64,000 bases of DNA from a bacterium (GTDB lineage Bacteria > ARS69): contig JAWKKG010000002.1 in the NCBI GenBank assembly GCA_041393395.1, positions 14,151-78,150 of the forward strand, written 5' to 3'. The notes under the pieces were generated by a model. The model did not search any database, was not told the origin of the DNA, and saw nothing but the letters and a program-made list of their open reading frames with translations. Positions within the stretch are counted from its first letter, which is position 1; each line of letters opens with the position of its first letter. This document shows positions 9,684-46,153 of the stretch, piece after piece. The position numbers were made by a program, and so were the translations under genes.

Positions 9684-10241
9684 TTGCCCTGGATCTCGCT
9701 CATCGGCTTCATGTGCTCGGGAAAGTCTTCCACGGGCCGCCTCGTGGCGCGTCAGCTCGGCTGGCCGCACTTCGACACCGACCGCTTGATCGTGGAGCGG
9801 GAGGGGAAGTCCGTCGCCGAGATCTTCCGCGAGCGGGGGGAGGCGTACTTTCGCGACCTGGAGTACCGGATCGTGGAGGAGCTGCCGCCCGAGCGGGACA
9901 TCGTGGTCTCCACCGGCGGCGGCCTCGTGCTCGTGGAGCCGGCGATGGAGATCCTCCGGGTGCAGGGGCCCGTGTTCTGGCTCAGCGTGCAGCCGGAGGA
10001 CGTCCTGGAGCGAAGCCAGCGACCGTGGGCGGCCAAGCGTCCGATGCTGCGGGAGGGCGAGGACCTGCCGGCTCGCGTGGACCGGTTGATGGCCGAGCGC
10101 GAGCCGCTCTATCGTCGGTGGGGCACTCCAGTGCCCGGCGGCTTCGACCATCCGCGCGAGGCCACGCGTCACATTCTCGCGATCCTCTCGAAGCGACAGG
10201 AGTTCCGCCCGTACTTCGGGTTCGGGGAATCGCCGCGATGA
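9684..10241 (+). CDS. aroK: Shikimate kinase
   Basis: P-loop 'LIGFMCSGKSSTGRLVA', DTD motif. Probable TTG start. aroK after pilQ is a conserved arrangement. Confidence 0.85.
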   Translation: MPWISLIGFMCSGKSSTGRLVARQLGWPHFDTDRLIVEREGKSVAEIFRERGEAYFRDLEYRIVEELPPERDIVVSTGGGLVLVEPAMEILRVQGPVFWLSVQPEDVLERSQRPWAAKRPMLREGEDLPARVDRLMAEREPLYRRWGTPVPGGFDHPREATRHILAILSKRQEFRPYFGFGESPR

Positions 10242-12563: not shown

Positions 12564-14299
<1,736 letters not shown>

Positions 14300-32937: not shown

Positions 32938-34188
32938 ATGAGCGACAAGCGACGGGTGGTCGTCACCGGAGTCGGGGCGATCACTCCCATCGGCAACACG
33001 GCGCCGGAGTTCTGGCAGGCCGCGAGCACGGGTTCGTGCGGCGCGGGGCCGATCACCCGGTTCGACCCGACGGATCATTCCGTGAAGTTCGCCTGCGAGG
33101 TGAAGGACTTCGACGAGTCCCGGGCCGGCGACCGGAAAGAAGCCCGCAAGATGGATCGCTTCACTCAGTTCGCGATGGTCGCCGCCCTGGAGGCGGCGGA
33201 GGACGCGGGCATCGCTCCCGGCGACGGCATCGACGCGAACCGCTTCGGCGTGCTGATCGGATCGGGAATCGGGGGCATCCAGACCCTCGAGGACCAGAAG
33301 GAAGTCCTCATGGAGAAGGGACCGGGCCGGGTGAGCCCGTTCTTCGTTCCCATGATGATCGTGAACATGGCCACCGGTCTCGTGGCGATCCGTCTCGGCG
33401 CGAAGGGCCCGAGCAACGCCACCGTGACCGCGTGCGCCTCCGGAGCGAACGCGATCGGCGACGCATTCCGCGTCATCTCGTACGGCGACGCCGACGTGAT
33501 GATCGCCGGCGGCGCCGAGGCTCCGATCACCCAGATCGCCGTGGGCGGCTTCGCCAACATGAAGGCGCTGTCGACCCGGAACGACGATCCGATGCACGCG
33601 AGCCGTCCGTTCGATGCGGACCGCGACGGCTTCGTGATCGGAGAGGGAGCGGGAATCGTGGTGCTCGAGGAGCTGGAGCACGCGAAGCGACGGGGAGCCC
33701 GCATCTACTGCGAGCTCGTGGGCTACGGCTACAGCACGGACGCCCATCACATGACCGCGCCCGCCCCCGGAGGAGAAGGTGCCGTCCGGTCGATGCAGGC
33801 CGCGATCCGCGACGCCGGGGTGTCCCCGGCCGACGTCACCTACCTGAACGCGCACGGGACCTCGACGCCGTTGAACGACAAGTACGAGACGGCCGCGATC
33901 AAGACCGTGTTCGGCGAGCACGCCACGCGACTCGCCGTCAGCTCCACGAAATCCATGACCGGGCATCTGCTCGGCGCAGCGGGGGGAATCGAGTTCGTGC
34001 TCCTCGCCTACGCGCATCGCGATGGGCGAGTCCCTCCGACCATCAACTACAAGACCAAAGACCCCGAGTGCGATCTCGACTATGTGCCGAACGAGGCACG
34101 CGACCTGAAAGTGAATGTCGCCCTGACGAACTCACTCGGCTTCGGCGGTCACAACGTGACGTTGGCGACCAGGAGTCATGAAGGATAA
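32938..34188 (+). CDS. fabF: 3-oxoacyl-ACP synthase II
   Basis: Active-site Cys '[16 protein letters not shown]'. His motifs '[10 protein letters not shown]', 'GHLLGAAGG'. Confidence 0.95.
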
Positions 34189-35923
34189 TCAGACGAACGC
34201 GATCCAGGGAGCGGTCTCGGTTCTCGAGAAGCTCTTCTTCGGAACGCGCAAAGGACCGTCGGGGGAGCGTTCCCGGCTGCTGCGGAAGCTCCAGAAGCGG
34301 ATCGGTGTCCGCTTCACCGACATCTCTCTGCTCGAACAGGCGTTGACCCACCGCTCGTACTCGCACGTCACCGCGCAGACGCGCAACGACTCGAACGAGC
34401 GCATGGAGTTCCTCGGGGACTCCGTGCTCGGGCTCTCCGTCAGCCAGTTCCTGTATCTGCAGTTCCCGGAGCGCTCGGAAGGAGCGCTCTCCAAGATGAA
34501 GTCGCTGCTCGTGAGCCGGAAGGTGCTCTCCACGATCGCGAAGGAGGTCGGACTCGGCGAGTTCGTGCTCCTGTCCGGCGAGGAGTCGGAGATGGGCGGT
34601 CGCGACCGCACGTCGATCCTCGCGGACTCGTTCGAGGGCGTGATCGGCGCGATCTATCTCGATCAGGGCTACCGGACCGCGAACCGGTTCATCCAGAAGT
34701 TCCTGCTCGCGAACATCCACGAGATCCTGAAGGACGACGATCACACGAACTTCAAGTCGCTGCTCCAGGAGTACGTCCAGTCCAAGCGGCTGTCGCATCC
34801 CGTCTACCGTGTCCGCAAGGAAGAGGGACCGGAGCACGAGAAGGAGTTCGCGATCGACGTCGTGGTCAAGGGCGAGGTCTGGGGCACCGGTCGCGGCAAG
34901 AGCAAGAAGGACGCGGAGCAGAACGCGGCCCGCGCGGCGCTCGAGAAGCGACAGGGCAAGGTTGCCGGACGTCGCGGCGGGAACGGCGGCAGCTCGCCTC
35001 CCGAGAACGGTGACGCCGGCGAGAGCGCTCCGACCCGCGGTCGCGGGCGCCGGCGCGGACGCGGCGAGGCCACCGAGGTGCAGGCCGAGGCGCGATCCCG
35101 TGGTGATCATGGAATCGTCGCGTCGCGAGAGAAGCTGCGCGAGGCTCGTCAGGCCGAGGAGGACAGTCGTCGGCGCGGGCGCGATCGTCGTCCTTCGCGG
35201 CGTGGTCGTGCGGAATCGGAGGCCGCGGACAGCGAGGCGCCGGTCGAGGCGATGGAGAACGGCGGTCGGGGACGCCGGGCGGAGGGCGACAGCGACTCGC
35301 GGCCGCGTTCCGAGCGTCGGCGTCGGCGACGGCGGCGCGGCGGGGGCGGCGGTGCCGACGACGTTTCGCCGGGTGAGACGATGACGGCGGGGACCGGAGC
35401 CGCCGCTTCGGTGGTCGCGGCCTCGGACGTCGATGCCGGAACCGAACGGGAGACCCCGGCGAGGGACGAGTTCGAATCGCGACCGGTCGTCGAGAGCGAA
35501 TCGCGGGCGGAGTTGCGCGAGTCCGAACGGGTCGAGGCGCTGGCGCGTCCGGCACCGGAACGGGAGCGCCGCGAGCCCGAGGCTTCGAGCGAGACGGAGC
35601 GCCCACGCCGGGTCGAGCCGGCGCGGTTGGAGACCGCGGAAGAAGTGGAGTCCGAGCCCGCGGCGGAATCCTCCGAGCCGGAAGGCTTCGTGCGGCGCCG
35701 TCGTACCCGGCGGGAGTCGCGCCCGACGCCGTCCGGGGGAGGCGGTGCGGAGCGTCCTCCCGTGTCGACTGCGGTCGAGCCTCTCGACCCGGCGTCGTCG
35801 TCTTCGGACGGGGACGAGGCGGAGGTCGGCTCGACCGCGTCGGTAGACGGTGGGACCGGCGAAGAGTCCGCCGGATTCACGCGACGCAAGCGACGTCAGG
35901 TGCGCGGACTCCGCCGCCGCTAG
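34178..35923 (+). CDS. rnc: Ribonuclease III with a ~330-aa Arg/Glu/Gly-rich low-complexity C-terminal extension
   Basis: RNase III signature '[12 protein letters not shown]' and a dsRBD ending near residue ~250, in the conserved position after fabF. The same frame then continues open for ~330 more codons with a GC3-rich coding pattern. Confidence 0.8.
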
Positions 35924-38193
35924 ACGTTCGTCCCGGCGGGCGGCGGCGTCGCGTTCCGGCGCCGTCGCCCGCGCAGCGTCCCCCCGAGCAGCAGCAGCAT
36001 CCCGGCCGCTGCGGCCGCGCCCAGCATCGCGTCGGCGAAGTCGGAAGCGTTCGCCCCCGCGTGCGCCGCGACCGGCGGCAATGCCTCGTCTCTGCCGCGC
36101 ACCACGAACGCGCCCCACAGGAACGGATCGTTCAGGTCGGAGCGTCCCGAGAGGATCATCGCGCCGCGCGCCCGGCGCAACGCCTCCGACGGACGATCGC
36201 CTGCCGCGAGACGCTCGTGCAGTGCGGCCATCAGCTTCCCGATCGCGCGATCCTCGACCTTCCACAGCGCGCCGATCACCGAGCCCGCGCCGGCGTCGAG
36301 GAATGCGGACGAGAGAACGCCCACCGACGTGCGCCCCGCGACGTCCGAGAGTCCGGTCTCGCAGCCGGAGAGCACCACGATGCGTGCCGGGACATCGATG
36401 CGGCGGATCTCTGCCGGCTCGAGTCGACCGTCGCCGTCCTCGGCGGGAGCGAGAAGTACGGCGGGGGACCGGGGATCCGTGTGCGCGGCGAGGTGCAGGA
36501 TCGCGGGAGGGGGGCGATCGCGAACCCGCGCCTCCGTCGCGTCGGCGCCCAGCCACACCTCGACCTCGGAACCCGTGCGCGCGATCGCGTCCGCCTCGTC
36601 ACGCGCGCCGGGCAGCGGAACGAGCGGGGACGTCGGGCCGAGCACCGGGTCCGCCAGGACGCGGACGGCGCGGGTCGTGTTCGCGTCCGAATCCGGGGGC
36701 GGCCCCGAGACCGTCGCGTCCACGAGCGACCGGACGATGCCGAGGGGGCCGGCCCCGGTGGGAAGCACGGCGAACGGCAGGGCCTGGAGGGGACCGTCCG
36801 GCTCGAGCAGCATGCGGCCGTGCGACTGTTCCGCGTCGGCGGGAAACAAGCGCCCGACGAGGACCCGCCCGACGTCGTCCCGCTCGGTGGCGCGCGACGG
36901 GTCGGCGAGGAGGCCGCGGAACAGCAGGATCCACTCGCGCAGCTCGTCGGCCGCGCCGCAGTCGCGGGCGCGGTGGAGCGGGGCGGAGGATCCCGGCCAC
37001 TCCGCGAACGCGAGCACGCGCTCGCTGCCCCAGAACCAAGCGATCGCGAGGTCGTCTCCCTCCCGGGTGATTGCTCCGTGGGGATCCGCCCCGCGCACCC
37101 GGCGCACCCACTCGCGCGCCTCGTCGAACCGGGCCGGCTCCACGTCGAAGGCAGCGCCGTCCGTCGACGCCGGAAACCAGAGGTCGAGCGCCGTCTCGAC
37201 CCATGAGCGCGCGACCCGACACCGTGCGTCCGTTTCCGCGACGCCGCTCGCCTCCTCGATCCACGCGCGCGCCTGCGCGAGACACACGCCGATCCGGCGG
37301 GCGGCTTCCAAGCGATCGCCTCCGGCGACGGCATCGAGCGCGGCGCGCTGTTCCACGTCGGCGCGATCCCGCGCATCCCGCGCGAGGGTCCGGGCCCGCG
37401 TCGTCGCGTCGTGCGCGTCTTGCGGTCGTCGCGCCTTGGTGCAGGCTTCCGCGAGCGCGAGTCGGGCGCGACGCTCGATCGCGAGCGCCGTGTCCGCGCG
37501 CGCGCCGTCGGCGACGCGAGCGAGCGCGGCCGCGGCCTCGCGCGGGCGCCCGCGGTCGAGGTCGAGGAGGCCGCGCACGAATCCGATCTCCAGCTCCTCC
37601 CGGGGTGACGGCTTCGCGCGTTCGGCGACGTCGAGTGCCCGCTCCGCCGCGTCGAGGTGATCGGTGAGCCGGCGGGCGTCGGCCACGATGCGCCATGCGC
37701 GCGCCTCGGTCGCGCCGTCATCCGCCGCGCGCGCGCGTTCCGCGGCCCGCAGCGCGATCGCCTCGGCCGCTTCCCAGCGACCTTCCCGCAATCGGTGCTG
37801 CGCCTGGTTCGTGAGGACGAACCCGGCCGTGTCGTCCGGCACGTCCGTCGTCAGCGCGCCGGTCGCCATCTCGAGGAGCAGCGCGGCCTCGGCGTGATTG
37901 CCGGCCCGCGAAGCTTCCGCCGCCGCGTTGGACAGATGCAGTGCACGATCGCCGGGCTCGTCGGTGGCCTCCGCCGCGCGCCGGAACAGTCGCGTCGCGT
38001 CGCCGTGCTGGCCCGCGCGCGAAGCGGCAAGTGCGCGCGCGGCCCACGAACTCGCGTCGTCGCGCAACGTGTCGGCGGGGGCATCGCTCGCGTCGACGCG
38101 CTGCGCGAGGGCGGCCGCCGGACCGAGGATTCCGGGGCCCGGCCCGAGCGTGAGCGCGAGAAGAAGGAGAATCAGGGTGTGACGGCCGACCAC
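35920..38193 (-). CDS. Secreted TPR-like repeat + CHAT (caspase-like) domain protein with C-terminal hydrophobic segment and RRRR tail (757 aa)
   Basis: GTG start gives the signal peptide 'VVGRHTLILLLLALTLGPGPGILGPAAALAQ'. N-terminal Ala/Arg-rich helical repeats (TPR-like). C-terminal CHAT with His/Cys dyad contexts 'AILHLAAHTDP' and 'IVVLSGCETG'. Ends '...[32 protein letters not shown]'. The upstream 361 codons of ORF 35920..39276 are the antisense of the anti-sigma/sigma genes and are rejected. Confidence 0.65.
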   Translation of the reverse strand: MVGRHTLILLLLALTLGPGPGILGPAAALAQRVDASDAPADTLRDDASSWAARALAASRAGQHGDATRLFRRAAEATDEPGDRALHLSNAAAEASRAGNHAEAALLLEMATGALTTDVPDDTAGFVLTNQAQHRLREGRWEAAEAIALRAAERARAADDGATEARAWRIVADARRLTDHLDAAERALDVAERAKPSPREELEIGFVRGLLDLDRGRPREAAAALARVADGARADTALAIERRARLALAEACTKARRPQDAHDATTRARTLARDARDRADVEQRAALDAVAGGDRLEAARRIGVCLAQARAWIEEASGVAETDARCRVARSWVETALDLWFPASTDGAAFDVEPARFDEAREWVRRVRGADPHGAITREGDDLAIAWFWGSERVLAFAEWPGSSAPLHRARDCGAADELREWILLFRGLLADPSRATERDDVGRVLVGRLFPADAEQSHGRMLLEPDGPLQALPFAVLPTGAGPLGIVRSLVDATVSGPPPDSDANTTRAVRVLADPVLGPTSPLVPLPGARDEADAIARTGSEVEVWLGADATEARVRDRPPPAILHLAAHTDPRSPAVLLAPAEDGDGRLEPAEIRRIDVPARIVVLSGCETGLSDVAGRTSVGVLSSAFLDAGAGSVIGALWKVEDRAIGKLMAALHERLAAGDRPSEALRRARGAMILSGRSDLNDPFLWGAFVVRGRDEALPPVAAHAGANASDFADAMLGAAAAAGMLLLLGGTLRGRRRRNATPPPAGTNV

Positions 38194-38972
38194 TCGAACC
38201 GGCCGGGCGCGGACGAGACTTCCGATCCGTCCTCGCGTCGGGCGCGCACGATCCAGTGCAACTCGTGCGCCCCCTCGCCGAAGCGCTGCGAGATCTCCGC
38301 GCCGGGCAACAGCCAAGATGCCTCCTCCGTGGGGCCTAGCTCCGCGACGGTCGTTCCCGCCACGTCGACCAGCACGACGTGATACGAACGGGCGCCGGCG
38401 ACCGGCCCCCACGCGAATCGTACGTCGCCTCGGAGGTTCTCGTCTTCCTTCGGGGTGATCCGCTCGATCTGTTGCGCGCTCGCCGACGCGTGGGGATTCG
38501 TGCGCAGCTCCGCGCCGCGCTCCGGAGTGGACTCGCGGAGCACGAGCGCCACGAGCAACGTCGCCGCGGCGGCGCCGAGGAGGGCCGGGGTGGGTGAGGC
38601 GAGGAGCTCGCGCATCCGCCGGAAGATCCCGGGATCCTGCGAGCGCGACGACGGGACGCCGGCCGCCCGCACCTCGCGCAGCAACTCGCTCGGCGGGGTC
38701 GCGGCGAGGTCCGGCACGTCCTCGAGCGCCGCGCGGAGCTCGCCGAAGGCGCGGGCGAGTGCGGGATCCTCGGTGAGGCGACGCCGAGCCCGCGCGGCGT
38801 CCTCTCCGGAGAGCGTGCCGTCCAGCAGGCCGAGCAGCTCCTCGTCCAGCTCGTCGAGCTCGGCCGGGGTGCCGTCGCCGGAGGAGCGGGTCGCATCGCT
38901 CCAGGCGGACAGCAGGAAGGCCGTCTCGGGAAAGTCGCGCTCGGGAGATCGATCGTCGGGTCGGGTCGTCAT
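38172..38972 (-). CDS. Membrane-anchored anti-sigma factor: N-terminal anti-sigma domain, 1 TM, periplasmic C-terminal domain
   Basis: 'ELDEELLGLLDGTLSGEDAARARRRLTEDPALARAFGELRAALED' RskA/ChrR-like anti-sigma N-domain lacking Cys. TM 'ALLGAAAATLLVALVL'. ~120-aa periplasmic domain. ATG overlaps the ECF sigma stop (ATGA). Confidence 0.6.
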   Translation of the reverse strand: MTTRPDDRSPERDFPETAFLLSAWSDATRSSGDGTPAELDELDEELLGLLDGTLSGEDAARARRRLTEDPALARAFGELRAALEDVPDLAATPPSELLREVRAAGVPSSRSQDPGIFRRMRELLASPTPALLGAAAATLLVALVLRESTPERGAELRTNPHASASAQQIERITPKEDENLRGDVRFAWGPVAGARSYHVVLVDVAGTTVAELGPTEEASWLLPGAEISQRFGEGAHELHWIVRARREDGSEVSSAPGRFEWSAVTP

Positions 38973-39721
38973 GGTTCCCTCTCGTCCGGATCGGACACGC
39001 CCGCGGCGGCATTTTGAAACAGGGCGGCCCGAAACGTCTCCGCCGCCTCGGAGAAGGCCCGTTCGTCCCAGTCGGCCGACTCGCGGGCGCGAGCGAGGGC
39101 GGCACACTTGCCGAGCGCCTTGCGGAGCCGGTACGCCGCGTCGTTCGTGTCGCGCGCGCCGATCGCCTCGGCGAGCTCGCGGAGTTTGAGGCCACCGGCG
39201 AAGCGCAGGGTGAGGATCTCGCGATCCGCGGGCTCGAGTGCCGCCAGTGCGTCGCGGGCGGCGTGCCGGCCGACACCCACGGCCCAGGTCTCCCGCCGCG
39301 TCGTGGCCGCGAGGTCCTCCTCGGCCCGGGCCTCGCCCTCCAGCCGCTCCCGCGACGTCGCCTCCACGCCCTTGCGCCGGTAGAGACGGAAGCGCTCCGT
39401 CTTCACGACCCGGAACAGGTAGGTGCGGAAATCGCAGCGGCCCTCGAACGCCCGGAGCCGCCGGAAGTCCTCCGAGCGGAGCCGCTCGAACACTCCGCGG
39501 AATACCTCCGCGGAGAACTCCTCGGGGTCCGGGTGACCCTGCGCGAACTTCAGCGCCAGGGACCAGACGAACTTGGAGTATTTCTCGACAAAGAGCTGCC
39601 AACCTTTTGCGGGATCGGTGGTTAGCATTCCTTGGATGTCGGAGAACTCGAGCCCGGACCGGGAGTCCTCGAGCCGCGCGAGTCGGTCCAGAAATTCCCG
39701 GACGGGGCGTTCCTGAGCCAT
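38969..39721 (-). CDS. ECF-type RNA polymerase sigma-70 family factor with C-terminal extension
   Basis: Region 2 'FVEKYSKFVWSLALKF...FRTYLFRVVKTERFRLYRRK'. Region 4 'LEPADREILTLRFAGGLKLRELAEAIGARDTNDAAYRLRKAL'. ~45-aa extra C-terminus. Confidence 0.75.
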   Translation of the reverse strand: MAQERPVREFLDRLARLEDSRSGLEFSDIQGMLTTDPAKGWQLFVEKYSKFVWSLALKFAQGHPDPEEFSAEVFRGVFERLRSEDFRRLRAFEGRCDFRTYLFRVVKTERFRLYRRKGVEATSRERLEGEARAEEDLAATTRRETWAVGVGRHAARDALAALEPADREILTLRFAGGLKLRELAEAIGARDTNDAAYRLRKALGKCAALARARESADWDERAFSEAAETFRAALFQNAAAGVSDPDEREP

Positions 39722-39901
39722 ACGCGGGCCTCCGGTCGATCGCCGCGGCGAGGGTATCATGCGATCCGGGTGCGGTCACCCGAGGAGCCGCCGCGGCGAT
39801 CCTCCCGCTTGCCCATCAAGTCGATGCCGGGAAACGTCGATCCTTTGTCAGGATTGGGCGGCTTTGCCGGGAGCCCGGGGCAGGCGAGGAGTGGGGGCGT
39901 G

Positions 39902-42900
39902 ATGGCCGGAATCCACGAGAGCGGCGCGGGCTCGCGGTCCTCGTTCGAGGATTCGCTCGCGTTCCTCGTGTTGTTCTCGGAAGAGCTGCTCGATCTCGTG
40001 CCCGACGGGATCGGCGTGCTGGATGAGCAGCTCCGCGTGCGCGCGGCGAACCACGCGTTCCTCCGCGCGTTCGAGTTCGACTCCCTCGAGTCCGCCCGCG
40101 GCGTTTCCCTCGCCGAGGATCCCCTGATGCGCGTGCCGCTGCCCGACTGGCGCGACGCGCCGCTGCGCGAGATCGTGCCGGAGCTGCTTGCACGGGACGA
40201 GTCGGTCTCGCTGAACGCGGTGGAAGTACGGCATCCCGCGAGCGGCGAGCTTCGAACGTGGTCCCTGAAGGTCGTCCCCTGGGATACGGAGGACCCGCGC
40301 TTCCGGCGGCTGCTCCTCTGGGTCCACCCCTGGACCGACCGCCGGCCGGCGGATGCGTCGCCGGCACCGGACGTCACGTCGCCTGAGTTCCCGGCAGAGC
40401 ACCTCGCGCCCGACGCGGAAGGGCTCGCCCCGCCGGCGGAGCACCCCGCGCCCGACGCCGACGAGCCCGTCCCGCCGGCGGAGGTCTCCGCGCCGGGCGG
40501 CGCGGCGTCGGAGGAGACGTCCCCGGAGGATGCCGCCGAGCTGTTCCGCCTGACGAACCTCACCGCCCGCCTGCTCGAGACGTTGCCCGTGGGGATCGCG
40601 GTCCTCGACGGAGCGAGGCACGTGAAGGCGGCGAGCCACCGGCTCGAGACTCTCTTCGGCCGGGCGTTTCGCCGACACGGCCCGGGAGACCGCCACCTGT
40701 TCGCCGTGTTCCCGGAGCTGCGGGATCCGGCGTTCGACGCGTGGCTGGCCGGATCCCCCACCGATCGATTCTCTCACCCGGCGATTCCGCCGGGAGACCC
40801 CACTGTCCGATTCGAAGTCGAGGTCCAGTCCACGGGCTCCGTGGACGATGAAGGAACCGAGACCTTACTCGTCTTCCACGAGGTCGAAGCCATGCAACCC
40901 ACGCCGTCCGCGCCCGAACCGACGGTCGGAGGCCCGACTCCGGTCGGCCCCGCCGCCATTCTCGCCTCCGACAACCTCGGCCGCTGGCCGCAAGCGCCTT
41001 CCGATCGGCTGCTGATCGTGGAAGCCGACTCCTGGACGCGGATGGTGCTGTCGGACGCGCTCCGCGAGGGCGGATTCGAGGATCTCGTGTTCTGCGAGAA
41101 CCCGGCCGCGGTGTTCGACACCCAGGATCCGGCCGCATTCGCCGTGATCCTCGTGGGGCTCGACGGCGACACGAGCGGACTCCGTGCGCTGTGCGAGAGA
41201 CTCGTGCGCGACGCCGCGCGCGTTCCGGTGCTCGGCATCACGGATCGTACGGCCGAGGACGCGTTCGAGGTCGTGGGAGACGCGGCGCTCGCCGGCGTGC
41301 TGCCCGGCCTGCGGGGCAAGGAGCTGCGCGAGGTCGTGGCCGGCCTGATGCGGCGGGGCGCCGCGGAAGACGCGGCCGGATTCCCGGCCGAAGACGTCGC
41401 GCCGGATCTGACCATGGCGGCGGAGGGTGCGGAGAAGGCGGACGCGTTCGAGGTCGTGGTGCTGGGCGCCGGCGACGCCGACGTCTCCGTGCTGCGCATG
41501 CTCTACCGCGTGCCTCACGTGCGCGTGCGATTCGTGTTCGATCCGGATCCGGGCGCGTTCGGACTCTCGCTGTCCCAGAATCTCGGCATCCCGGCGATCT
41601 CGGGCGGCGTCTCGCTCGAGTTCCAGAACCCGCCCGCCGCCGTGGTGCTCGCGCGGTCCGGACTCGAGGAGCACCTCGCGCCGCTCGGTCTCGCGGAGGT
41701 CCCGCGCGTCACGCGTGACGAGCTGGAGCTGTTCCTCGTCGATCCCGCGTCGTACCTGGACGTCGAGAACGGCGCGGAGCGGGAGGCCGACGCCGGGGAA
41801 GCGGCGACGGAAGCCGTCGTCACCGAACCCGCCCGCGACGACTGGAGGGAGGACTCGCGTCCCGAAGACGAGCCCGTCGAGCCGACGGCCGACTGGGACA
41901 CGGCGGGCGACGACGGAACCGATCACGCACGGGCCGAGGCGCCCGCGACGGACACGGAGCCGAGCGCGCCCGCCGACGCATTCGAGGACTGGACCTCCGC
42001 CTTCGAGACGACGTCCGCTCCCGATCCCGCGCCGCCCGCGGAGGCGACGAACGAGCCGGCGCCGGAGCCGCCGCCCGCGGCCGCCGCGGCGCCGCGTCCC
42101 GCCCCGGCGATTCCGCCGGCCCCGGCGGCTCGTCCGCGCCCGACCACGCCGCTGCCCGCGCCGCCGCCGAAGCGCCCGGAGCTCGGCGCGTTCGCGGACC
42201 CGTTCTCCCCGGACTTCGCGGTCAGCGCGGGGCTGCCGGAGGACGACGAACCGGTGCGTCCGAACGCCCGGGTGGAATCGCTGCTCGAAGCGCTCGAGCT
42301 GCTGCTGGACTTCGACCGCTTCTCGTCCCACGTGCTGAAGCTCGCGCTCGATCTCACGAACGGCGCGTCCGGCAGCCTGATGCTCCTGCAGGAGGATCGC
42401 CGCGCGCTGCGGATCATCGCGGCGGCCGGTCTCTCCGACATCGTCGTGCAGAAGACCCGGCAGCGAGTCGGCGAGGGGATCGCGGGCCGCGTCGCCGCGG
42501 ACGGCGAGCCGCTCCTCCTCGTGGGCACGATCGGTGATGAACGCTTCCGCCAGCGGAGCGAGCGCAAGGAGATCCGCTCTTCGGTGTGCGCGCCCGTGAT
42601 CGCCGAGGGGCAGGTCATCGGCGTGCTGAACATCAACTCCGATCCGACGAATCACCCGTTCGACGAGACGCAGCTTCGCACCGTGGCGGCGCTCGGTCGC
42701 CAGCTCGGCAGCCCGCTCGATCGCTCGCGCCAGCTGCGCCGGATGCGCGGCCGTTCCTTCGAGCTGTCCGTGCGCGCGGAGATCGAAGCGATCGCGTCGT
42801 CGCAGGACGACATGGTCAGTCGCATGCGGCGGATCACGGCGCGCCTCGTGCAGATGCTCGACATCGACACCTGCGCGATCTGGCTGCTGGACGAGGCGCG

Positions 42901-43780
42901 CCACGGCCTGACGCTGCGCGCCGTCTCCGGTGTGACCGTGGCGTCGATGGATGCGGTGACGGTGCCGGTGGGCACGGGACTCGTGGGCTGGGTCGCGAAC
43001 AACCTGCGACCGCTCGTCCTGCGGAACTCGGCCGACGACCCGAACGACGCCACGCGCCTCACGAGCACCGGCGTGCCGATCCGCTGGCACACGGAGCTCG
43101 TGGGCGTGCTGGCCGTGGAGTCGACCTCGAAGAACACGACCGACGACGATCGACTCGGTCTCCTCGCCTCGGTGGCATCCGTGATCGGCGAGCAGATCGG
43201 CGTCTCGCGCGCGTACGAGGACTCGGAGCGGAAGGTCACGATGCTGTCGGCCCTGTCCGAGCTCGGGGTGGCGTTCGCCGCGGCGCAGGAGAGCTCGAAC
43301 CTCGCGAAGCTCGTCACGTTCTCGGCGTCGACCGTGCTCGAGTCCGACGTCGCCACGATCCGGTTCCGGCGCGTGGACGCGCCGAACCCCACCGGCACCC
43401 ACGACTTCGAGCTGCTCGCCTCCCACGGCGGGTCGATCGGGGGCGTGGGCGATCCGCTCGGGGATCTCGAGGAGTACATCACGCGTGAAGTGATCGCGAA
43501 GCGGAACCCGTGCCGCGACGCCGACCTGCCGCTGCAGGACATCGAGCCGCTCATGCAGCGGTCGAACGTCGCGTCGTTCCTCGGCGCGCCGATGATGTCC
43601 GGGCGGGACCTCGTGGGCGTGGTGGTGGTGTACCGCGTGCAGGACGCGATCGGACGCAACGTCGGCTATCGCGACGAGGAGATCGAGATCGCGATGCGTC
43701 TCGCCGACTACGCCGCGGCCGCCGCGGCCCGGTTCGTCGGCGCGACGGAGCCGGACGACGACTACGACGCGCAGCACTAG
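39902..43780 (+). CDS. Large multidomain signalling protein: 2x PAS-like, REC receiver, ~130-aa Pro/Ala-rich linker, 3x GAF; no recognisable output domain (1292 aa)
   Basis: PAS-like 'LLDLVPDGIGVLDEQLRVRAANHAFL' and 'LLETLPVGIAVLDGARHVKAASHRLE'. REC 'LLIVEADSWTRMVLSDALREGGFEDLVFCENPA...VILVGLDGDTSG'. Linker 'PAPEPPPAAAAAPRPAPAIPPAPAARPRPTTPLPAPPPKRP'. GAF segments with 'GIAGRVAADGEPLLL', 'GTGLVGWVANNLRPLVL' and a third C-terminal one. ATG 39902 chosen because upstream ORF sequence overlaps the divergent sigma gene. Confidence 0.75.
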   Translation: MAGIHESGAGSRSSFEDSLAFLVLFSEELLDLVPDGIGVLDEQLRVRAANHAFLRAFEFDSLESARGVSLAEDPLMRVPLPDWRDAPLREIVPELLARDESVSLNAVEVRHPASGELRTWSLKVVPWDTEDPRFRRLLLWVHPWTDRRPADASPAPDVTSPEFPAEHLAPDAEGLAPPAEHPAPDADEPVPPAEVSAPGGAASEETSPEDAAELFRLTNLTARLLETLPVGIAVLDGARHVKAASHRLETLFGRAFRRHGPGDRHLFAVFPELRDPAFDAWLAGSPTDRFSHPAIPPGDPTVRFEVEVQSTGSVDDEGTETLLVFHEVEAMQPTPSAPEPTVGGPTPVGPAAILASDNLGRWPQAPSDRLLIVEADSWTRMVLSDALREGGFEDLVFCENPAAVFDTQDPAAFAVILVGLDGDTSGLRALCERLVRDAARVPVLGITDRTAEDAFEVVGDAALAGVLPGLRGKELREVVAGLMRRGAAEDAAGFPAEDVAPDLTMAAEGAEKADAFEVVVLGAGDADVSVLRMLYRVPHVRVRFVFDPDPGAFGLSLSQNLGIPAISGGVSLEFQNPPAAVVLARSGLEEHLAPLGLAEVPRVTRDELELFLVDPASYLDVENGAEREADAGEAATEAVVTEPARDDWREDSRPEDEPVEPTADWDTAGDDGTDHARAEAPATDTEPSAPADAFEDWTSAFETTSAPDPAPPAEATNEPAPEPPPAAAAAPRPAPAIPPAPAARPRPTTPLPAPPPKRPELGAFADPFSPDFAVSAGLPEDDEPVRPNARVESLLEALELLLDFDRFSSHVLKLALDLTNGASGSLMLLQEDRRALRIIAAAGLSDIVVQKTRQRVGEGIAGRVAADGEPLLLVGTIGDERFRQRSERKEIRSSVCAPVIAEGQVIGVLNINSDPTNHPFDETQLRTVAALGRQLGSPLDRSRQLRRMRGRSFELSVRAEIEAIASSQDDMVSRMRRITARLVQMLDIDTCAIWLLDEARHGLTLRAVSGVTVASMDAVTVPVGTGLVGWVANNLRPLVLRNSADDPNDATRLTSTGVPIRWHTELVGVLAVESTSKNTTDDDRLGLLASVASVIGEQIGVSRAYEDSERKVTMLSALSELGVAFAAAQESSNLAKLVTFSASTVLESDVATIRFRRVDAPNPTGTHDFELLASHGGSIGGVGDPLGDLEEYITREVIAKRNPCRDADLPLQDIEPLMQRSNVASFLGAPMMSGRDLVGVVVVYRVQDAIGRNVGYRDEEIEIAMRLADYAAAAAARFVGATEPDDDYDAQH

Positions 43781-43789
43781 GGGCCTCGC

Positions 43790-44668
43790 TTGGAATCGAA
43801 CCTCACGCTCGCCGAACGCACGCGGCGTCGACTCGATCGGGTCGACGACGTTCCGACGTTGCCTCCCGTGCTGCTCATGGTGTGGGAGCTCACCGGCCGC
43901 TCGGACTCGTCGGCGGCGGATCTCGCGCGCGCGATCGGCTCGGATCCCGGACTGACGGGGGCCGTGCTCCGTCTCGCGAACTCCGCGTACTTCGGCTTCC
44001 CGCGCAAGATCGGCACCGTGAAGCAGGCGATCGTCGTGCTGGGCTTCGACACGGTGCGCAGTCTCGCGACCGGCGCCTCCGTGATGCGCGCGCTCGGACC
44101 GAGCTCGCCGAGCGGCATGGATGCAGGCGAGTTCCTGCGTCACTCCATGGTCACCGCGATGGCCGCGCGTCTGCTCGTGGAGCGTCGCTGGCGGGAGCTC
44201 GCCGGATCGGCGTTCTGCGGCGGGGTGCTGCACGATCTCGGCAAACTCGTGATCGCGGAGTACCTCGCCGAAGCGAACGCGGAGATCGGTTCCCGCGTGG
44301 CGGGCGGTGCCTTGCGCGAGGACGCCGAACGCGAGACGCTGGGGATGACTCACGCGGAGATCGGCGGCTGGTTTGCGGACCGCTGGAGCCTGCCGGAAGA
44401 GCTGGCCGCCGCGGTGAGATGGCACCATGATCCGGCCGGAGCCGGCGATCGCGAACGCTTCGCGGCCGCGGTTCACGTGGGAGACGTGCTGGCCCATCGG
44501 GTCGGCGCGGGCGGGAGCGGACGGACGGAGCCGCCTGCCCTCCGTCCGGAGGCTTGCACGATTCTCGGCCTCCCCGCGGACGAGCTCGGGGAGTGGACGG
44601 AACGCGTGGCTGCCCTGACGGTCGAGATGCCGTCGGCGGAGGCCGCGCTCGGCCTGGGGGCGAAATGA
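43790..44668 (+). CDS. HDOD (HD-related output domain) protein
   Basis: 'VPTLPPVLLMVWEL...LAQAIGSDPGLTGAVLRLANSAYFG...IGTVKQAIVVLGFDTVRSLA' HDOD signature. TTG start 10 nt after the upstream stop. Confidence 0.7.
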   Translation: MESNLTLAERTRRRLDRVDDVPTLPPVLLMVWELTGRSDSSAADLARAIGSDPGLTGAVLRLANSAYFGFPRKIGTVKQAIVVLGFDTVRSLATGASVMRALGPSSPSGMDAGEFLRHSMVTAMAARLLVERRWRELAGSAFCGGVLHDLGKLVIAEYLAEANAEIGSRVAGGALREDAERETLGMTHAEIGGWFADRWSLPEELAAAVRWHHDPAGAGDRERFAAAVHVGDVLAHRVGAGGSGRTEPPALRPEACTILGLPADELGEWTERVAALTVEMPSAEAALGLGAK

Positions 44669-44922
44669 GCGACTCGACCTCGGCGACGCCGCCACCGGCG
44701 TCGGATGATCGGGCCACCCGGATGGGAGAGGAGGCCCGCCGCATCGGACACGATCTCAACAACGTGCTCGGCGTGATCGGCGGCCGAGCCGAGCTCCTCC
44801 GCATGCACCTGGACCGTGGCAACGTGGACGGCGCCCGCAAGGGCGTCGACGTCATCCTGGAGCAGATGGACCGGCTCCGGCAGCTCTCCGACGAGATCCG
44901 CGACCTCCGCCACACGGAATGA
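44665..44922 (+). CDS. Stand-alone histidine-kinase dimerisation/phosphoacceptor (HisKA/DHp) domain protein, 85 aa, no ATPase domain
   Basis: 'MGEEARRIGHDLNNVLGVIGGRAELL' H-box-like helix followed by a second helix 'VILEQMDRLRQLSDEIRDL'. ATG overlaps the HDOD stop (ATGA). Confidence 0.5.
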   Translation: MSDSTSATPPPASDDRATRMGEEARRIGHDLNNVLGVIGGRAELLRMHLDRGNVDGARKGVDVILEQMDRLRQLSDEIRDLRHTE

Positions 44923-45136
44923 TCCGGCCCCGGCCCCGGGGCAATCTCCGGGAGGCCGGGCCCGCGGCGGCACGTCGCCGCGCCGCCGGGGTCACCGGGC
45001 GAAGACCCGGACCACCATCGGCGTCATCTTGACCGCCCCGGAACCGCTCGGTACCCTCCCGGGGCTTCTTTCCCGCATCCCGTCACGAGGCCCCATCGGG
45101 GCCGATTGCCCGTTCGGGCGCTCTGCAAGGGGGTAG

Positions 45137-46153
<1,017 letters not shown>

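What the first reader, a model, noticed from the sequence alone, without database searches (positions are those of the whole stretch)
39902..43780. 1292-aa PAS-PAS-REC-(Pro/Ala linker)-GAF-GAF-GAF protein with no output domain, divergent from the ECF sigma operon
The protein combines two PAS-like modules, a phospho-receiver domain (acidic pocket 'LLIVEADS...LVGLDGD') and three GAF domains. A ~130-aa Pro/Ala-rich low-complexity linker (~41.95-42.25 kb) separates the receiver from the GAFs. No kinase, cyclase, phosphodiesterase or DNA-binding domain is recognisable.
It is transcribed divergently from the ECF sigma gene, sharing a 180-nt intergenic region (39722-39901). It is followed, with overlapping stops and starts, by an HDOD protein and a kinase-less DHp domain.
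Inference: this looks like a signal-integration hub (receiver plus three small-molecule-binding GAFs) whose output is exerted through partner proteins. It is possibly linked to the sigma/anti-sigma/CHAT switch next door.
Basis: partly seen in the sequence, partly recalled or inferred. Interest (0 to 1): 0.65.

Follow-up and report, generated by a model that had tools for sequence, protein, structure and literature searches.

The report
Output-less multi-sensor protein with mini-partner
This is a real 1292-residue cytoplasmic sensor protein of an uncultured Eisenbacteria-like bacterium that carries many input domains, a dead receiver domain and no enzymatic or DNA-binding output. It is always paired with a tiny stand-alone histidine-kinase dimerisation domain, an unusual but not revolutionary variant of two-component signalling.

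Summary
The ORF 39902-43780(+) is real, with codon bias, Pfam domains and about 15 orthologues.

- **Receiver domain.** It has the receiver fold but is a pseudo-receiver. The phospho-acceptor Asp is Gly, the second acidic residue is variable, and the conserved Lys is absent in all orthologues.
- **Missed domain.** A conserved ~105-residue domain at residues 515-620 was overlooked. It is a Rossmann-like fold distantly related to NAD-binding domains, with a degenerate glycine loop and no Pfam or NCBIfam model. Remote homologues head X-GAF-GGDEF proteins and PAS/GAF histidine kinases.

No cryptic output domain exists.

Only the 80-89-residue DHp-only protein is universally conserved next to the gene (15/15 syntenic loci, often with overlapping stop and start). 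Its His, Asp and Asn (H+4) are invariant. HDOD occurs in 7/15 loci and the divergent ECF sigma/anti-sigma/CHAT module in 6/15, so both are accessory.

The most likely mechanism is an inference: the sensor gates the free DHp domain, which acts as a phosphatase or phosphotransfer module, by protein-protein contact, possibly using the pseudo-receiver as a decoy.

The family is confined to one uncultured lineage. It is a new variant of a known kind, of moderate-to-low interest.

The parts
39902..43780 (+). Gene for the 1292-aa output-less multi-sensor protein (MEZ5063133.1)
   Evidence: ORF and start codon. GC3 is 0.89. Nine full-length orthologues were found by word search and about 15 clusters by exhaustive HMM search. 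Exact NCBI match.
39989..40345 (+). PAS domain 1 (residues 30-148), including the invariant WDTEDPxFRR motif
   Evidence: Pfam PAS_4 at 51.7 bits against a cutoff of 23.1. Conserved in alignment A1.
40349..40540 (+). Ala/Pro/Glu-rich spacer 1 (residues 150-213); 11-63 residues in orthologues
   Evidence: Composition and length variation.
40565..40906 (+). Probable PAS domain 2 (residues ~222-335)
   Evidence: Pfam PAS_8 matches the N-terminal part only: 33.9 bits for the whole protein, 20.0 bits for the segment alone. The PDB profile search gives only weak hits, and all are PAS sensor domains (E 0.09-0.8).
41006..41347 (+). Pseudo-receiver domain (residues 369-482)
   Evidence: The family profile hits CheY at E=3e-9. 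In that alignment D13 falls on a variable residue, D57 on G419 and K109 on G469; the invariant D421 aligns to CheY N59. The AlphaFold model has pLDDT 91 and a (beta-alpha)5 fold, with beta3 ending at G419. Foldseek TM is ~0.75 to receiver domains, including the CpaE/TadZ atypical receivers. Per-residue conservation.
41444..41761 (+).
41765..42271 (+). Pro/Ala/acidic low-complexity spacer (residues 622-790); 62-174 residues in orthologues
   Evidence: Composition is 22% A, 21% P and 23% D+E, and length is variable.
42308..42724 (+). GAF domain 1 (residues 803-941)
   Evidence: Pfam GAF/GAF_2/GAF_3. Colinear with the first GAF of X-GAF-GGDEF proteins.
42818..43198 (+). GAF domain 2 (residues 973-1099)
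   Evidence: Pfam GAF at 52.6 bits on the isolated segment.
43307..43723 (+). GAF domain 3 (residues 1136-1274); the protein ends 18 residues later
   Evidence: Pfam GAF at 36.6 bits on the isolated segment.
44665..44922 (+). DHp-only (HisKA) mini-protein of 85 aa, the universally conserved partner; H-box RIGHDLNN
   Evidence: Pfam HisKA at 29.4 bits. Present directly downstream in 15/15 syntenic loci. The 23 homologue clusters are all 59-129 aa. H29, D30 and N33 are invariant. The profile aligns to the DHp of ThkA (3a0r) and HK853 (4jas) with the His in register.
43790..44668 (+). HDOD protein of 292 aa, an accessory member of the operon (7 of 15 loci)
   Evidence: Pfam HDOD at E=1.8e-54. Presence and absence across loci. 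Its stop overlaps the DHp start through ATGA.
39816..39869 (+). Conserved non-coding element upstream of the gene (TCAAGT-N17-CCGAT-N4/5-TTGYCARGATTGGGCGG-N-TTTG)
   Evidence: Blocks are invariant across 10 aligned loci and also in L018, with or without the divergent sigma gene. Unique in the window. No Rfam match.
38972..39721 (-). Divergent ECF sigma factor, accessory (6 of 15 loci)
   Evidence: TIGR02937 at 59 bits against a cutoff of 42.9; Sigma70_r2 and r4_2. Distribution.
35920..38978 (-). Anti-sigma-like ORF (38172-38978) and TPR-CHAT protein (35920 to ~38175), which travel with the sigma gene
   Evidence: CHAT at E=4.5e-44. Weak anti-sigma hit. Co-occurrence with the sigma gene.

Best explanation
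**Shown.** The gene encodes a soluble multi-input signalling scaffold with this order of parts: PAS, spacer, PAS, pseudo-receiver, degenerate Rossmann-like domain, Pro/Ala spacer, then three GAF domains. It has no catalytic or DNA-binding output. It is conserved as an operon pair with an 80-89-residue stand-alone DHp (HisKA) protein. That partner keeps the phospho-His, the adjacent acidic residue and the Asn at H+4. No ATP-binding (CA) domain is encoded in the operon.

**Inferred.** The output is exerted by protein-protein contact on the free DHp dimer. In HisKA kinases the isolated DHp domain is enough to dephosphorylate the cognate response regulator, and it is the surface that receivers dock on. 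The most likely mechanism therefore has three steps.
1. The DHp mini-protein acts as a CA-less phosphatase or phosphotransfer module for an unlinked response regulator.
2. The large protein gates access to it in response to ligands sensed by its PAS, GAF and Rossmann-like domains.
3. The non-phosphorylatable pseudo-receiver is the obvious candidate for a decoy that occupies the receiver-docking site.

HDOD, and the ECF sigma/anti-sigma/CHAT module, are lineage-specific accessories.
For: - **Architecture and absence of output:**
- **Pseudo-receiver:**
- **Rossmann-like domain X:**. Its recurrence as an N-terminal input module in GAF-GGDEF proteins and histidine kinases is shown.
- **DHp-only partner:** it is adjacent in 15/15 syntenic loci. 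Its start overlaps the stop of the big gene where HDOD is absent or the stop of HDOD where HDOD is present.
- **DHp-only family:** it consists solely of 59-129-aa proteins with invariant H-D-x-x-N. The His aligns in register with ThkA and HK853.
- **Literature on DHp:** the DHp alone suffices for phosphatase activity in EnvZ and NtrB, and the T/N at H+4 is the phosphatase residue (PMC3510030).
- **Literature on pseudo-receivers:** a pseudo-receiver regulates a kinase core by domain docking in ShkA (PMC6969517).
Against: - No interaction or activity has been tested, so every step after the anatomy is inference.
- Synteny in this narrow lineage extends over more than 20 kb (fab cluster, rnc, gap-pgk-tpi, aminotransferases). 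Adjacency alone is therefore weak evidence of a functional link; the stop/start overlaps are what add weight.
- A shorter relative (L014) sits elsewhere without a DHp gene.
- The target response regulator and any kinase are unknown.
- The invariant E374, D376 and D421 might form a non-canonical acidic site, so phosphorylation cannot be formally excluded.
Confidence: 0.4

Rival explanations
1. This is a genuine phosphorelay. The DHp mini-protein is a histidine phosphotransferase, like Spo0B or ChpT, that passes phosphate from an unlinked kinase to the receiver-like domain of the large protein. The invariant D421 would be the acceptor, and phosphorylation would reset the GAF and PAS modules.
For: - The receiver fold is intact, with pLDDT 91.
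- E374, D376 and D421 are invariant or nearly so, and Thr/Ser447 is kept in 9 of 10 sequences.
- The His of the DHp protein is invariant.
Against: - The residue at the end of beta3, equivalent to CheY D57, is Gly/Ala. D421 aligns to D+2.
- The D13 position is A/S/K/P/R.
- The K109 position is G/E/R/D/T and never Lys.
- The whole-domain Pfam score is 13 bits against a cutoff of 30.2.
Confidence: 0.1
2. The protein is a hub wired to the divergently transcribed ECF sigma/anti-sigma/CHAT switch, and to HDOD.
For: - The divergent arrangement, with a 150-280-nt intergenic region, recurs in 6 loci: window, L003, L004, L007, L009 and L017.
- In those six loci HDOD is always present too.
Against: - Eight syntenic loci keep the gene and the DHp partner but have neither the sigma/CHAT module nor HDOD.
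- One locus (L018) has HDOD but an rnc end plus a hairpin upstream, so HDOD and the sigma module are separable.
- The six sigma-containing loci cluster together on the tree, which is compatible with a single insertion.
- The upstream conserved element does not depend on the sigma gene.
Confidence: 0.12
3. This is a metabolic or redox regulator of the downstream gap-pgk-tpiA-secG operon. The Rossmann-like domain would sense NAD(H), as Rex does, and the protein would modulate glycolytic gene expression.
For: - The gene pair lies directly upstream of gap-pgk-tpi, in the same orientation, in all 15 syntenic loci.
- Domain X is related to NAD-binding domains.
Against: - There is no DNA- or RNA-binding domain.
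- The glycine-rich dinucleotide loop is degenerate (G-A-x-E/D-x-D/E), with acidic residues where the pyrophosphate would sit.
- Synteny is lineage-wide and includes unrelated housekeeping genes.
- A 220-nt gap separates the DHp gene from gap.
Confidence: 0.08
4. This is an evolutionary relic: a decayed histidine kinase or diguanylate cyclase whose output was lost, kept without a specific signalling role.
For: - The C-terminal half is colinear with X-GAF-GAF-GAF-GGDEF proteins but stops before the GGDEF domain.
- The receiver and the Rossmann loop are both degenerate.
Against: - An intact ORF of 1115-1293 aa is kept in about 15 divergent genomes (42-59% identity), with strongly conserved domain cores and variable spacers only.
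- Many columns in PAS1, X and the GAF domains are invariant.
Confidence: 0.05

Closest known systems
Multi-sensor PAS/GAF hybrid histidine kinases (for example P0010-P0013, the next-best database hits)
   Same: Tandem PAS and GAF input domains, a receiver-fold domain, and a HisKA DHp with a standard H-box.
   Different: The DHp is a separate 85-aa protein. No HATPase_c (CA) domain is found in the operon. The receiver lacks the phospho-Asp and the Lys.
X-GAF-GAF-GAF-GGDEF proteins of ~760 aa (P0028, P0033, P0035, P0054 and others), an unnamed family
   Same: The same degenerate Rossmann-like domain X ('LGAREDE...VYDPDP..GL.LA') is followed by GAF domains. The match is colinear over X, GAF1 and the start of GAF2 at 29-38% identity.
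   Different: Those proteins begin with X and end in a (weak) GGDEF domain. The window protein adds PAS-PAS-pseudo-receiver at the N-terminus, has a 170-residue spacer between X and GAF1, and has no GGDEF.
Pseudo-receiver-containing signalling proteins: ShkA Rec1 (PMC6969517), CpaE/TadZ atypical receivers, and, from my own knowledge, CikA and KaiA
   Same: A receiver fold without the phospho-acceptor residues, used for ligand or domain docking rather than phosphotransfer.
   Different: There is no sequence relationship beyond the fold. Here the pseudo-receiver is embedded between PAS and Rossmann-like modules in a protein without a kinase core.
Isolated DHp domains of EnvZ and NtrB, which act as phosphatases (PMC3510030), and, from my own knowledge, the Spo0B/ChpT phosphotransferases
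   Same: A four-helix-bundle DHp with His and an E/DxxT/N motif that works without autokinase activity.
   Different: The EnvZ and NtrB cases are engineered fragments, and Spo0B and ChpT keep a degenerate CA-like domain. Here a natural 80-89-aa DHp-only gene is conserved.
NAD-binding domain of acylating acetaldehyde dehydrogenases (DmpF/BphJ type, 4lrs_B), GFO/IDH/MocA and Rex
   Same: The Rossmann-like beta-alpha-beta core, a conserved Asp at the end of beta2, and the 'D..P.A.GL..A...G' helix.
   Different: Only ~105 residues are present. The GxGxxG loop is degenerate, and there is no catalytic or dimerisation domain.

Membership tests
Response-regulator receiver (REC, PF00072) | (beta-alpha)5 CheY-like fold | tested here: met
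   The AlphaFold model has pLDDT 91 and five beta-alpha units. Foldseek TM is 0.70-0.78 to receiver domains. The profile hits CheY at E=3e-9.
Response-regulator receiver (REC, PF00072) | Phospho-acceptor Asp at the C-terminal end of beta3 (CheY D57) | tested here: not met
   It aligns to G419, which is G in 9/10 sequences and A in 1/10. The invariant D421 aligns to CheY N59, and beta3 ends at G419 in the model.
Response-regulator receiver (REC, PF00072) | Acidic pair after beta1 (CheY D12, D13) | tested here: not met
   The D12 position is the invariant E374. The D13 position is A/S/K/P/R.
Response-regulator receiver (REC, PF00072) | Conserved Lys after beta5 (CheY K109) and Thr/Ser after beta4 (T87) | tested here: not met
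   T/S447 is kept in 9/10 sequences. The K109 position (residue 469) is G/E/R/D/T and never Lys. The Pfam score is 13 bits against a cutoff of 30.2.
Sensor histidine kinase (HisKA + HATPase_c) | DHp domain with phospho-accepting His | tested here: met
   It is met only in trans. The separate 85-aa ORF at 44665-44922 hits HisKA at 29.4 bits against a cutoff of 26.9. Its His is in register with ThkA and HK853.
Sensor histidine kinase (HisKA + HATPase_c) | ATP-binding catalytic (CA, HATPase_c) domain | tested here: not met
   There is no HATPase_c hit in the large protein, the HDOD protein or the DHp ORF. The next gene downstream is gap.
GAF domain proteins (PF01590/PF13185) | GAF fold profile above the curated threshold | tested here: met
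   Three copies are found: 133 bits for the whole protein, and 52.6 and 36.6 bits for the isolated second and third segments.
PAS domain proteins | PAS profile above the curated threshold | tested here: met
   PAS1 scores 51.7 bits with PAS_4 against a cutoff of 23.1. PAS2 is only partial: 20.0 bits with PAS_8 on the isolated segment, and PDB profile hits at E of 0.09 or weaker.
NAD(P)-binding Rossmann-fold domains | Rossmann-like beta-alpha-beta fold with an acidic residue at the end of beta2 | tested here: met
NAD(P)-binding Rossmann-fold domains | Glycine-rich dinucleotide-binding loop GxGxxG/A | tested here: not met
   Only G522 is invariant. Positions 3-6 are G/D/R/S/A/Q, D/E/A/K/V, A/G/P/S/D/L and D/E. 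Remote relatives in kinases keep GGGKGG or GAGHLG. Actual ligand binding cannot be tested with these tools.
X-GAF-GGDEF putative diguanylate cyclases | C-terminal GGDEF domain | tested here: not met
   There is no GGDEF hit at E of 1 or below, and the protein ends 18 residues after GAF3. Relatives carry weak GGDEF hits.
   The module is present in 6 of 15 syntenic loci. Those six loci group together on the tree.

The most novel reading that the evidence does not exclude
The large protein and the free-standing DHp mini-protein form a previously undescribed 'kinase-less' two-component-like module. A natural DHp-only protein would act as a dedicated response-regulator phosphatase or phosphotransfer hub. 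Its receiver-docking surface would be gated by a sensor scaffold through a pseudo-receiver decoy. The degenerate Rossmann-like domain X would be a new, widespread cytoplasmic input domain that is also used by GAF-GGDEF proteins and histidine kinases.
Probability: 0.2. Interest if true: 0.6.

Novelty: new variant of a known kind. Interest (0 to 1): 0.35.

Why it matters
If the inferred mechanism holds, it would be a natural example of a histidine-kinase DHp domain working on its own under the control of a separate sensor. So far this has been seen mainly with engineered fragments.

It would also give a function to a pseudo-receiver in a non-kinase protein.

Independently of mechanism, the work defines an unannotated Rossmann-like input domain that recurs at the N-terminus of GAF-GGDEF proteins and histidine kinases and has no Pfam or NCBIfam model.

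The practical impact is limited. The family is restricted to about 15 sequence clusters from one uncultured lineage (Eisenbacteria-like MAGs), and nothing can be tested genetically at present.

Tried and rejected
- **Cryptic output domain.** I scanned the whole protein and five sub-segments against Pfam at lenient E-values, and against NCBIfam. Nothing turned up beyond PAS, GAF and weak REC. The only unassigned conserved block is Rossmann-like, not an output domain.
- **N-terminal half as a profile.** A profile of PAS-PAS-pseudo-receiver searched against the 5.8-billion-protein set returned only a fragment of the same protein, probably because low-complexity words dominated the candidate selection. 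This was uninformative.
- **Riboswitch or leader in the upstream element.** An Rfam scan of 39650-40000 at E of 1 or below gave no hit.
- **Promoters and terminators.** The sigma-70 and terminator consensus scan of 39600-45200 gave nothing above the shuffled expectation.
- **Perfect co-variation of HDOD with sigma/CHAT.** This looked true for 13 loci. It was broken by L018, which has HDOD with an rnc end plus a hairpin upstream.
- **AFDB fold search for domain X.** The library was not available.
- **Gene-fission test.** A BLAST of the DHp mini-protein against the kinases retrieved here found only weak H-box similarity.

Full report
**Observation**

The window is 70-77% G+C, so long ORFs occur on both strands. 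A 1276-codon Arg-rich antisense ORF overlaps this gene.

The + strand ORF is the real one:
- It starts at ATG 39902, preceded by GGAG, and ends at TAG 43778-43780.
- Third-position G+C is 0.89.
- It carries significant Pfam domains.
- It is identical to the NCBI protein MEZ5063133.1, 'GAF domain-containing protein', on a 1.16-Mb MAG contig.
- Nine full-length orthologues of 1115-1284 aa at 42-59% identity came from a word-indexed search. An exhaustive HMM search of 1.84 billion representatives found about 15 clusters.

Relatives come from MAGs labelled Gemmatimonadetes/Gemmatimonadota, 'bacterium', or Candidatus Eisenbacteria/Eiseniibacteriota.

**Anatomy**

Pfam gives PAS_4 at residues 30-148, PAS_8 from residue 222, and three GAF domains at about 803-941, 973-1099 and 1136-1274. 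PAS2 is only probable: 20 bits on the isolated segment, and weak PDB profile hits that are all PAS domains. Three low-complexity spacers vary in length between orthologues. The main one, residues 622-790, is 22% Ala, 21% Pro and 23% Asp+Glu, and is 62-174 residues long in relatives.

*Correction 1: the receiver is a pseudo-receiver.*
- Pfam scores it at 13 bits against a threshold of 30.2.
- A family profile does find CheY at E=3e-9.
- An AlphaFold model (pLDDT 91) has the (beta-alpha)5 fold, with TM of about 0.75 to receiver structures. The top hits include the atypical receivers of CpaE and TadZ.
- In the HMM alignment CheY D57 falls on Gly419, which is G in 9 of 10 sequences and A in 1. This is exactly where beta3 ends in the model.
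- CheY D13 aligns to a variable residue (A/S/K/P/R). CheY K109 aligns to G/E/R/D/T and never to Lys. Only the D12 position (invariant Glu374) and T87 (Thr/Ser447 in 9 of 10) are retained.

*Correction 2: a conserved domain was missed.*
- Between the receiver and the Pro/Ala spacer lies a well-conserved ~105-residue block, domain X (residues 515-620), with 65% mean column identity.
- It has no Pfam or NCBIfam hit.
- Its profile matches the NAD-binding domain of an acylating acetaldehyde dehydrogenase (4lrs_B, E=6.6e-5) and, weakly, Rex.
- The Asp at the end of beta2 is invariant (D547). The GxGxxG loop is degenerate: G-A-x-[E/D]-x-[D/E].

Every stretch of the protein is thereby assigned, and the chain ends 18 residues after GAF3.

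**What domain X is elsewhere**

Beyond the family itself, the exhaustive search found about 65 weaker hits (E 1e-10 to 1e-3) in which the domain sits at the extreme N-terminus. There are two groups.
- Group 1: ~760-aa proteins with the same degenerate loop ('LGAREDE...VYDPDP.A.GL.LAE..G') followed by two or three GAF domains and a weak GGDEF domain.
- Group 2: PAS/GAF-HisKA-HATPase_c kinases in which the loop is canonical (GGGKGG, GAGHLG).

The C-terminal half of the window protein is colinear with the first 330 residues of the first group: X at 38% identity, and GAF1 plus the start of GAF2 at 29%. The protein therefore looks like PAS-PAS-pseudo-receiver fused to an X-GAF3 sensor that lacks its GGDEF end. 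One such relative lies between mutS and mutL, which says nothing about function.

**Neighbourhood**

I compared 15 syntenic loci. All share this order: fab cluster, rnc, the big gene, a DHp-only gene, then gap-pgk-tpiA-secG.

- The DHp-only gene (78-89 aa) is present in 15 of 15 loci.
- Where HDOD is absent, the DHp start overlaps the stop of the big gene. In one search the big gene ends at 13855 and the DHp gene starts at 13852. Searches show the same overlap.
- HDOD is inserted between the two genes in 7 loci.
- The divergent ECF sigma/anti-sigma/CHAT block is inserted between rnc and the big gene in 6 loci.
- Eight loci have neither insertion. L018 has HDOD but an rnc end plus a terminator-like hairpin upstream.
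- On an NJ tree of the GAF region the six sigma-containing loci cluster together. HDOD-only L018 is sister to an HDOD-less clade with 97% support. The sigma block is thus compatible with one insertion, and HDOD has been gained or lost at least twice.
- A 953-aa relative (L014) lies in an unrelated context without the DHp gene or gap.

In this window the big gene and HDOD are separated by 9 nt rather than overlapping. HDOD and the DHp gene overlap through ATGA.

An approximately 54-nt non-coding element at 39816-39869 is conserved upstream of the gene in all loci read, with or without the sigma gene. It is unique in the window and matches no Rfam family. Its first two blocks, TCAAGT-N17-GATnnT, have promoter-like spacing, but I could not assign a sigma factor.

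**The partner**

The DHp-only protein hits Pfam HisKA above threshold. Its 23 homologue clusters are all 59-129 aa. H29, D30, N32 and N33 of the H-box RIGHDLNN are invariant or nearly so. The profile aligns to the DHp of ThkA (3a0r) and HK853 (4jas) with the His in register. No CA domain is encoded in the operon.

According to PMC3510030:
- The isolated DHp domains of EnvZ and NtrB are sufficient for phosphatase activity.
- The T/N four residues after the His is the residue required exclusively for that activity. Here that residue is Asn33.
- Helix alpha1 of the DHp is the receiver-docking surface.

ShkA offers a precedent for a pseudo-receiver that regulates a kinase core by domain docking (PMC6969517).

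**Mechanism**

What is shown is the anatomy and the conserved pairing. I infer, with confidence of about 0.4, that the large protein is a sensor scaffold whose output is control of the free DHp dimer. The DHp dimer would most plausibly be a CA-less phosphatase or phosphotransfer module for an unlinked response regulator. The pseudo-receiver would serve as a candidate decoy for the docking site.

The rivals are set out with their tests in the rival explanations:
- a true phosphorelay through D421;
- a Rex-like regulator of the gap operon;
- a decayed relic.

**Comparison and novelty**

All domain types except X are ordinary, and output-less multi-sensor proteins are common in genomes though rarely studied.

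Three features are unusual:
- the natural, conserved DHp-only partner;
- the pseudo-receiver in a non-kinase protein;
- the unannotated degenerate Rossmann-like input domain.

The protein fails membership of true receivers, of histidine kinases and of GGDEF cyclases, in each case on a defining feature that was tested. I rate it a new variant of a known kind, with interest 0.35. The narrow distribution in one uncultured lineage and the absence of any functional data limit its value. The DHp-only/pseudo-receiver idea and domain X are the parts worth following.

Noticed in passing
window 39816-39869: A ~54-nt conserved non-coding element (TCAAGT-N17-CCGAT-N4/5-TTGYCARGATTGGGCGG-N-TTTG) lies 35-85 nt upstream of the start codon. 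Its blocks are invariant in all 11 orthologous loci read, whether or not the divergent sigma gene is present. It has promoter-like block spacing and a possible CCGAUC/GAUUGG hairpin, but no covariation and no Rfam hit.
   Followed up: partly
window 40865-44695 (- strand): A 1276-codon antisense ORF overlaps most of the gene. It is Arg-rich, has no domains, and is an artefact of 72% G+C.
   Followed up: yes
window 34178-35923 (+ strand); L001 7937-9835: The RNase III gene (rnc) upstream is 491-632 aa in this lineage, about twice the usual bacterial length. It has a long extension beyond the Ribonuclease_3 and dsRBD domains.
   Followed up: no
L014 9944-12805: A shorter (953-aa) relative has one PAS hit, a receiver-like segment and three GAF domains. 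It sits in a different neighbourhood (C25 peptidase, aromatic amino-acid hydroxylase, a 976-aa unknown ORF) without the DHp gene or the gap operon.
   Followed up: partly
L003 5028-5830: The HDOD gene of this relative is frameshifted after the 'ILHDLG' motif, and the C-terminus of the big protein (P0004) is extended by Arg-rich sequence. This is probably an assembly error, or possibly a pseudogene.
   Followed up: no
L015 6001-8328: An X-GAF-GAF-GGDEF relative (P0054, 775 aa) is inserted between mutS and mutL in another MAG. Its Rossmann-like N-terminal domain has the same degenerate 'LGAREAD' loop.
   Followed up: partly
window 35920-39721 (- strand): The ECF sigma, anti-sigma-like ORF and TPR-CHAT protein form a three-gene block inserted between rnc and the sensor gene. 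The block is absent from about half of the related genomes and behaves as a cassette.
   Followed up: partly
L018 1-60; L013 ~55-105; L001 ~9835-9960: In loci without the sigma block, the rnc stop codon (GCGCTGA) is followed by a G+C-rich perfect hairpin without a T-tract. It is a candidate terminator or processing site just upstream of the conserved element.
   Followed up: no
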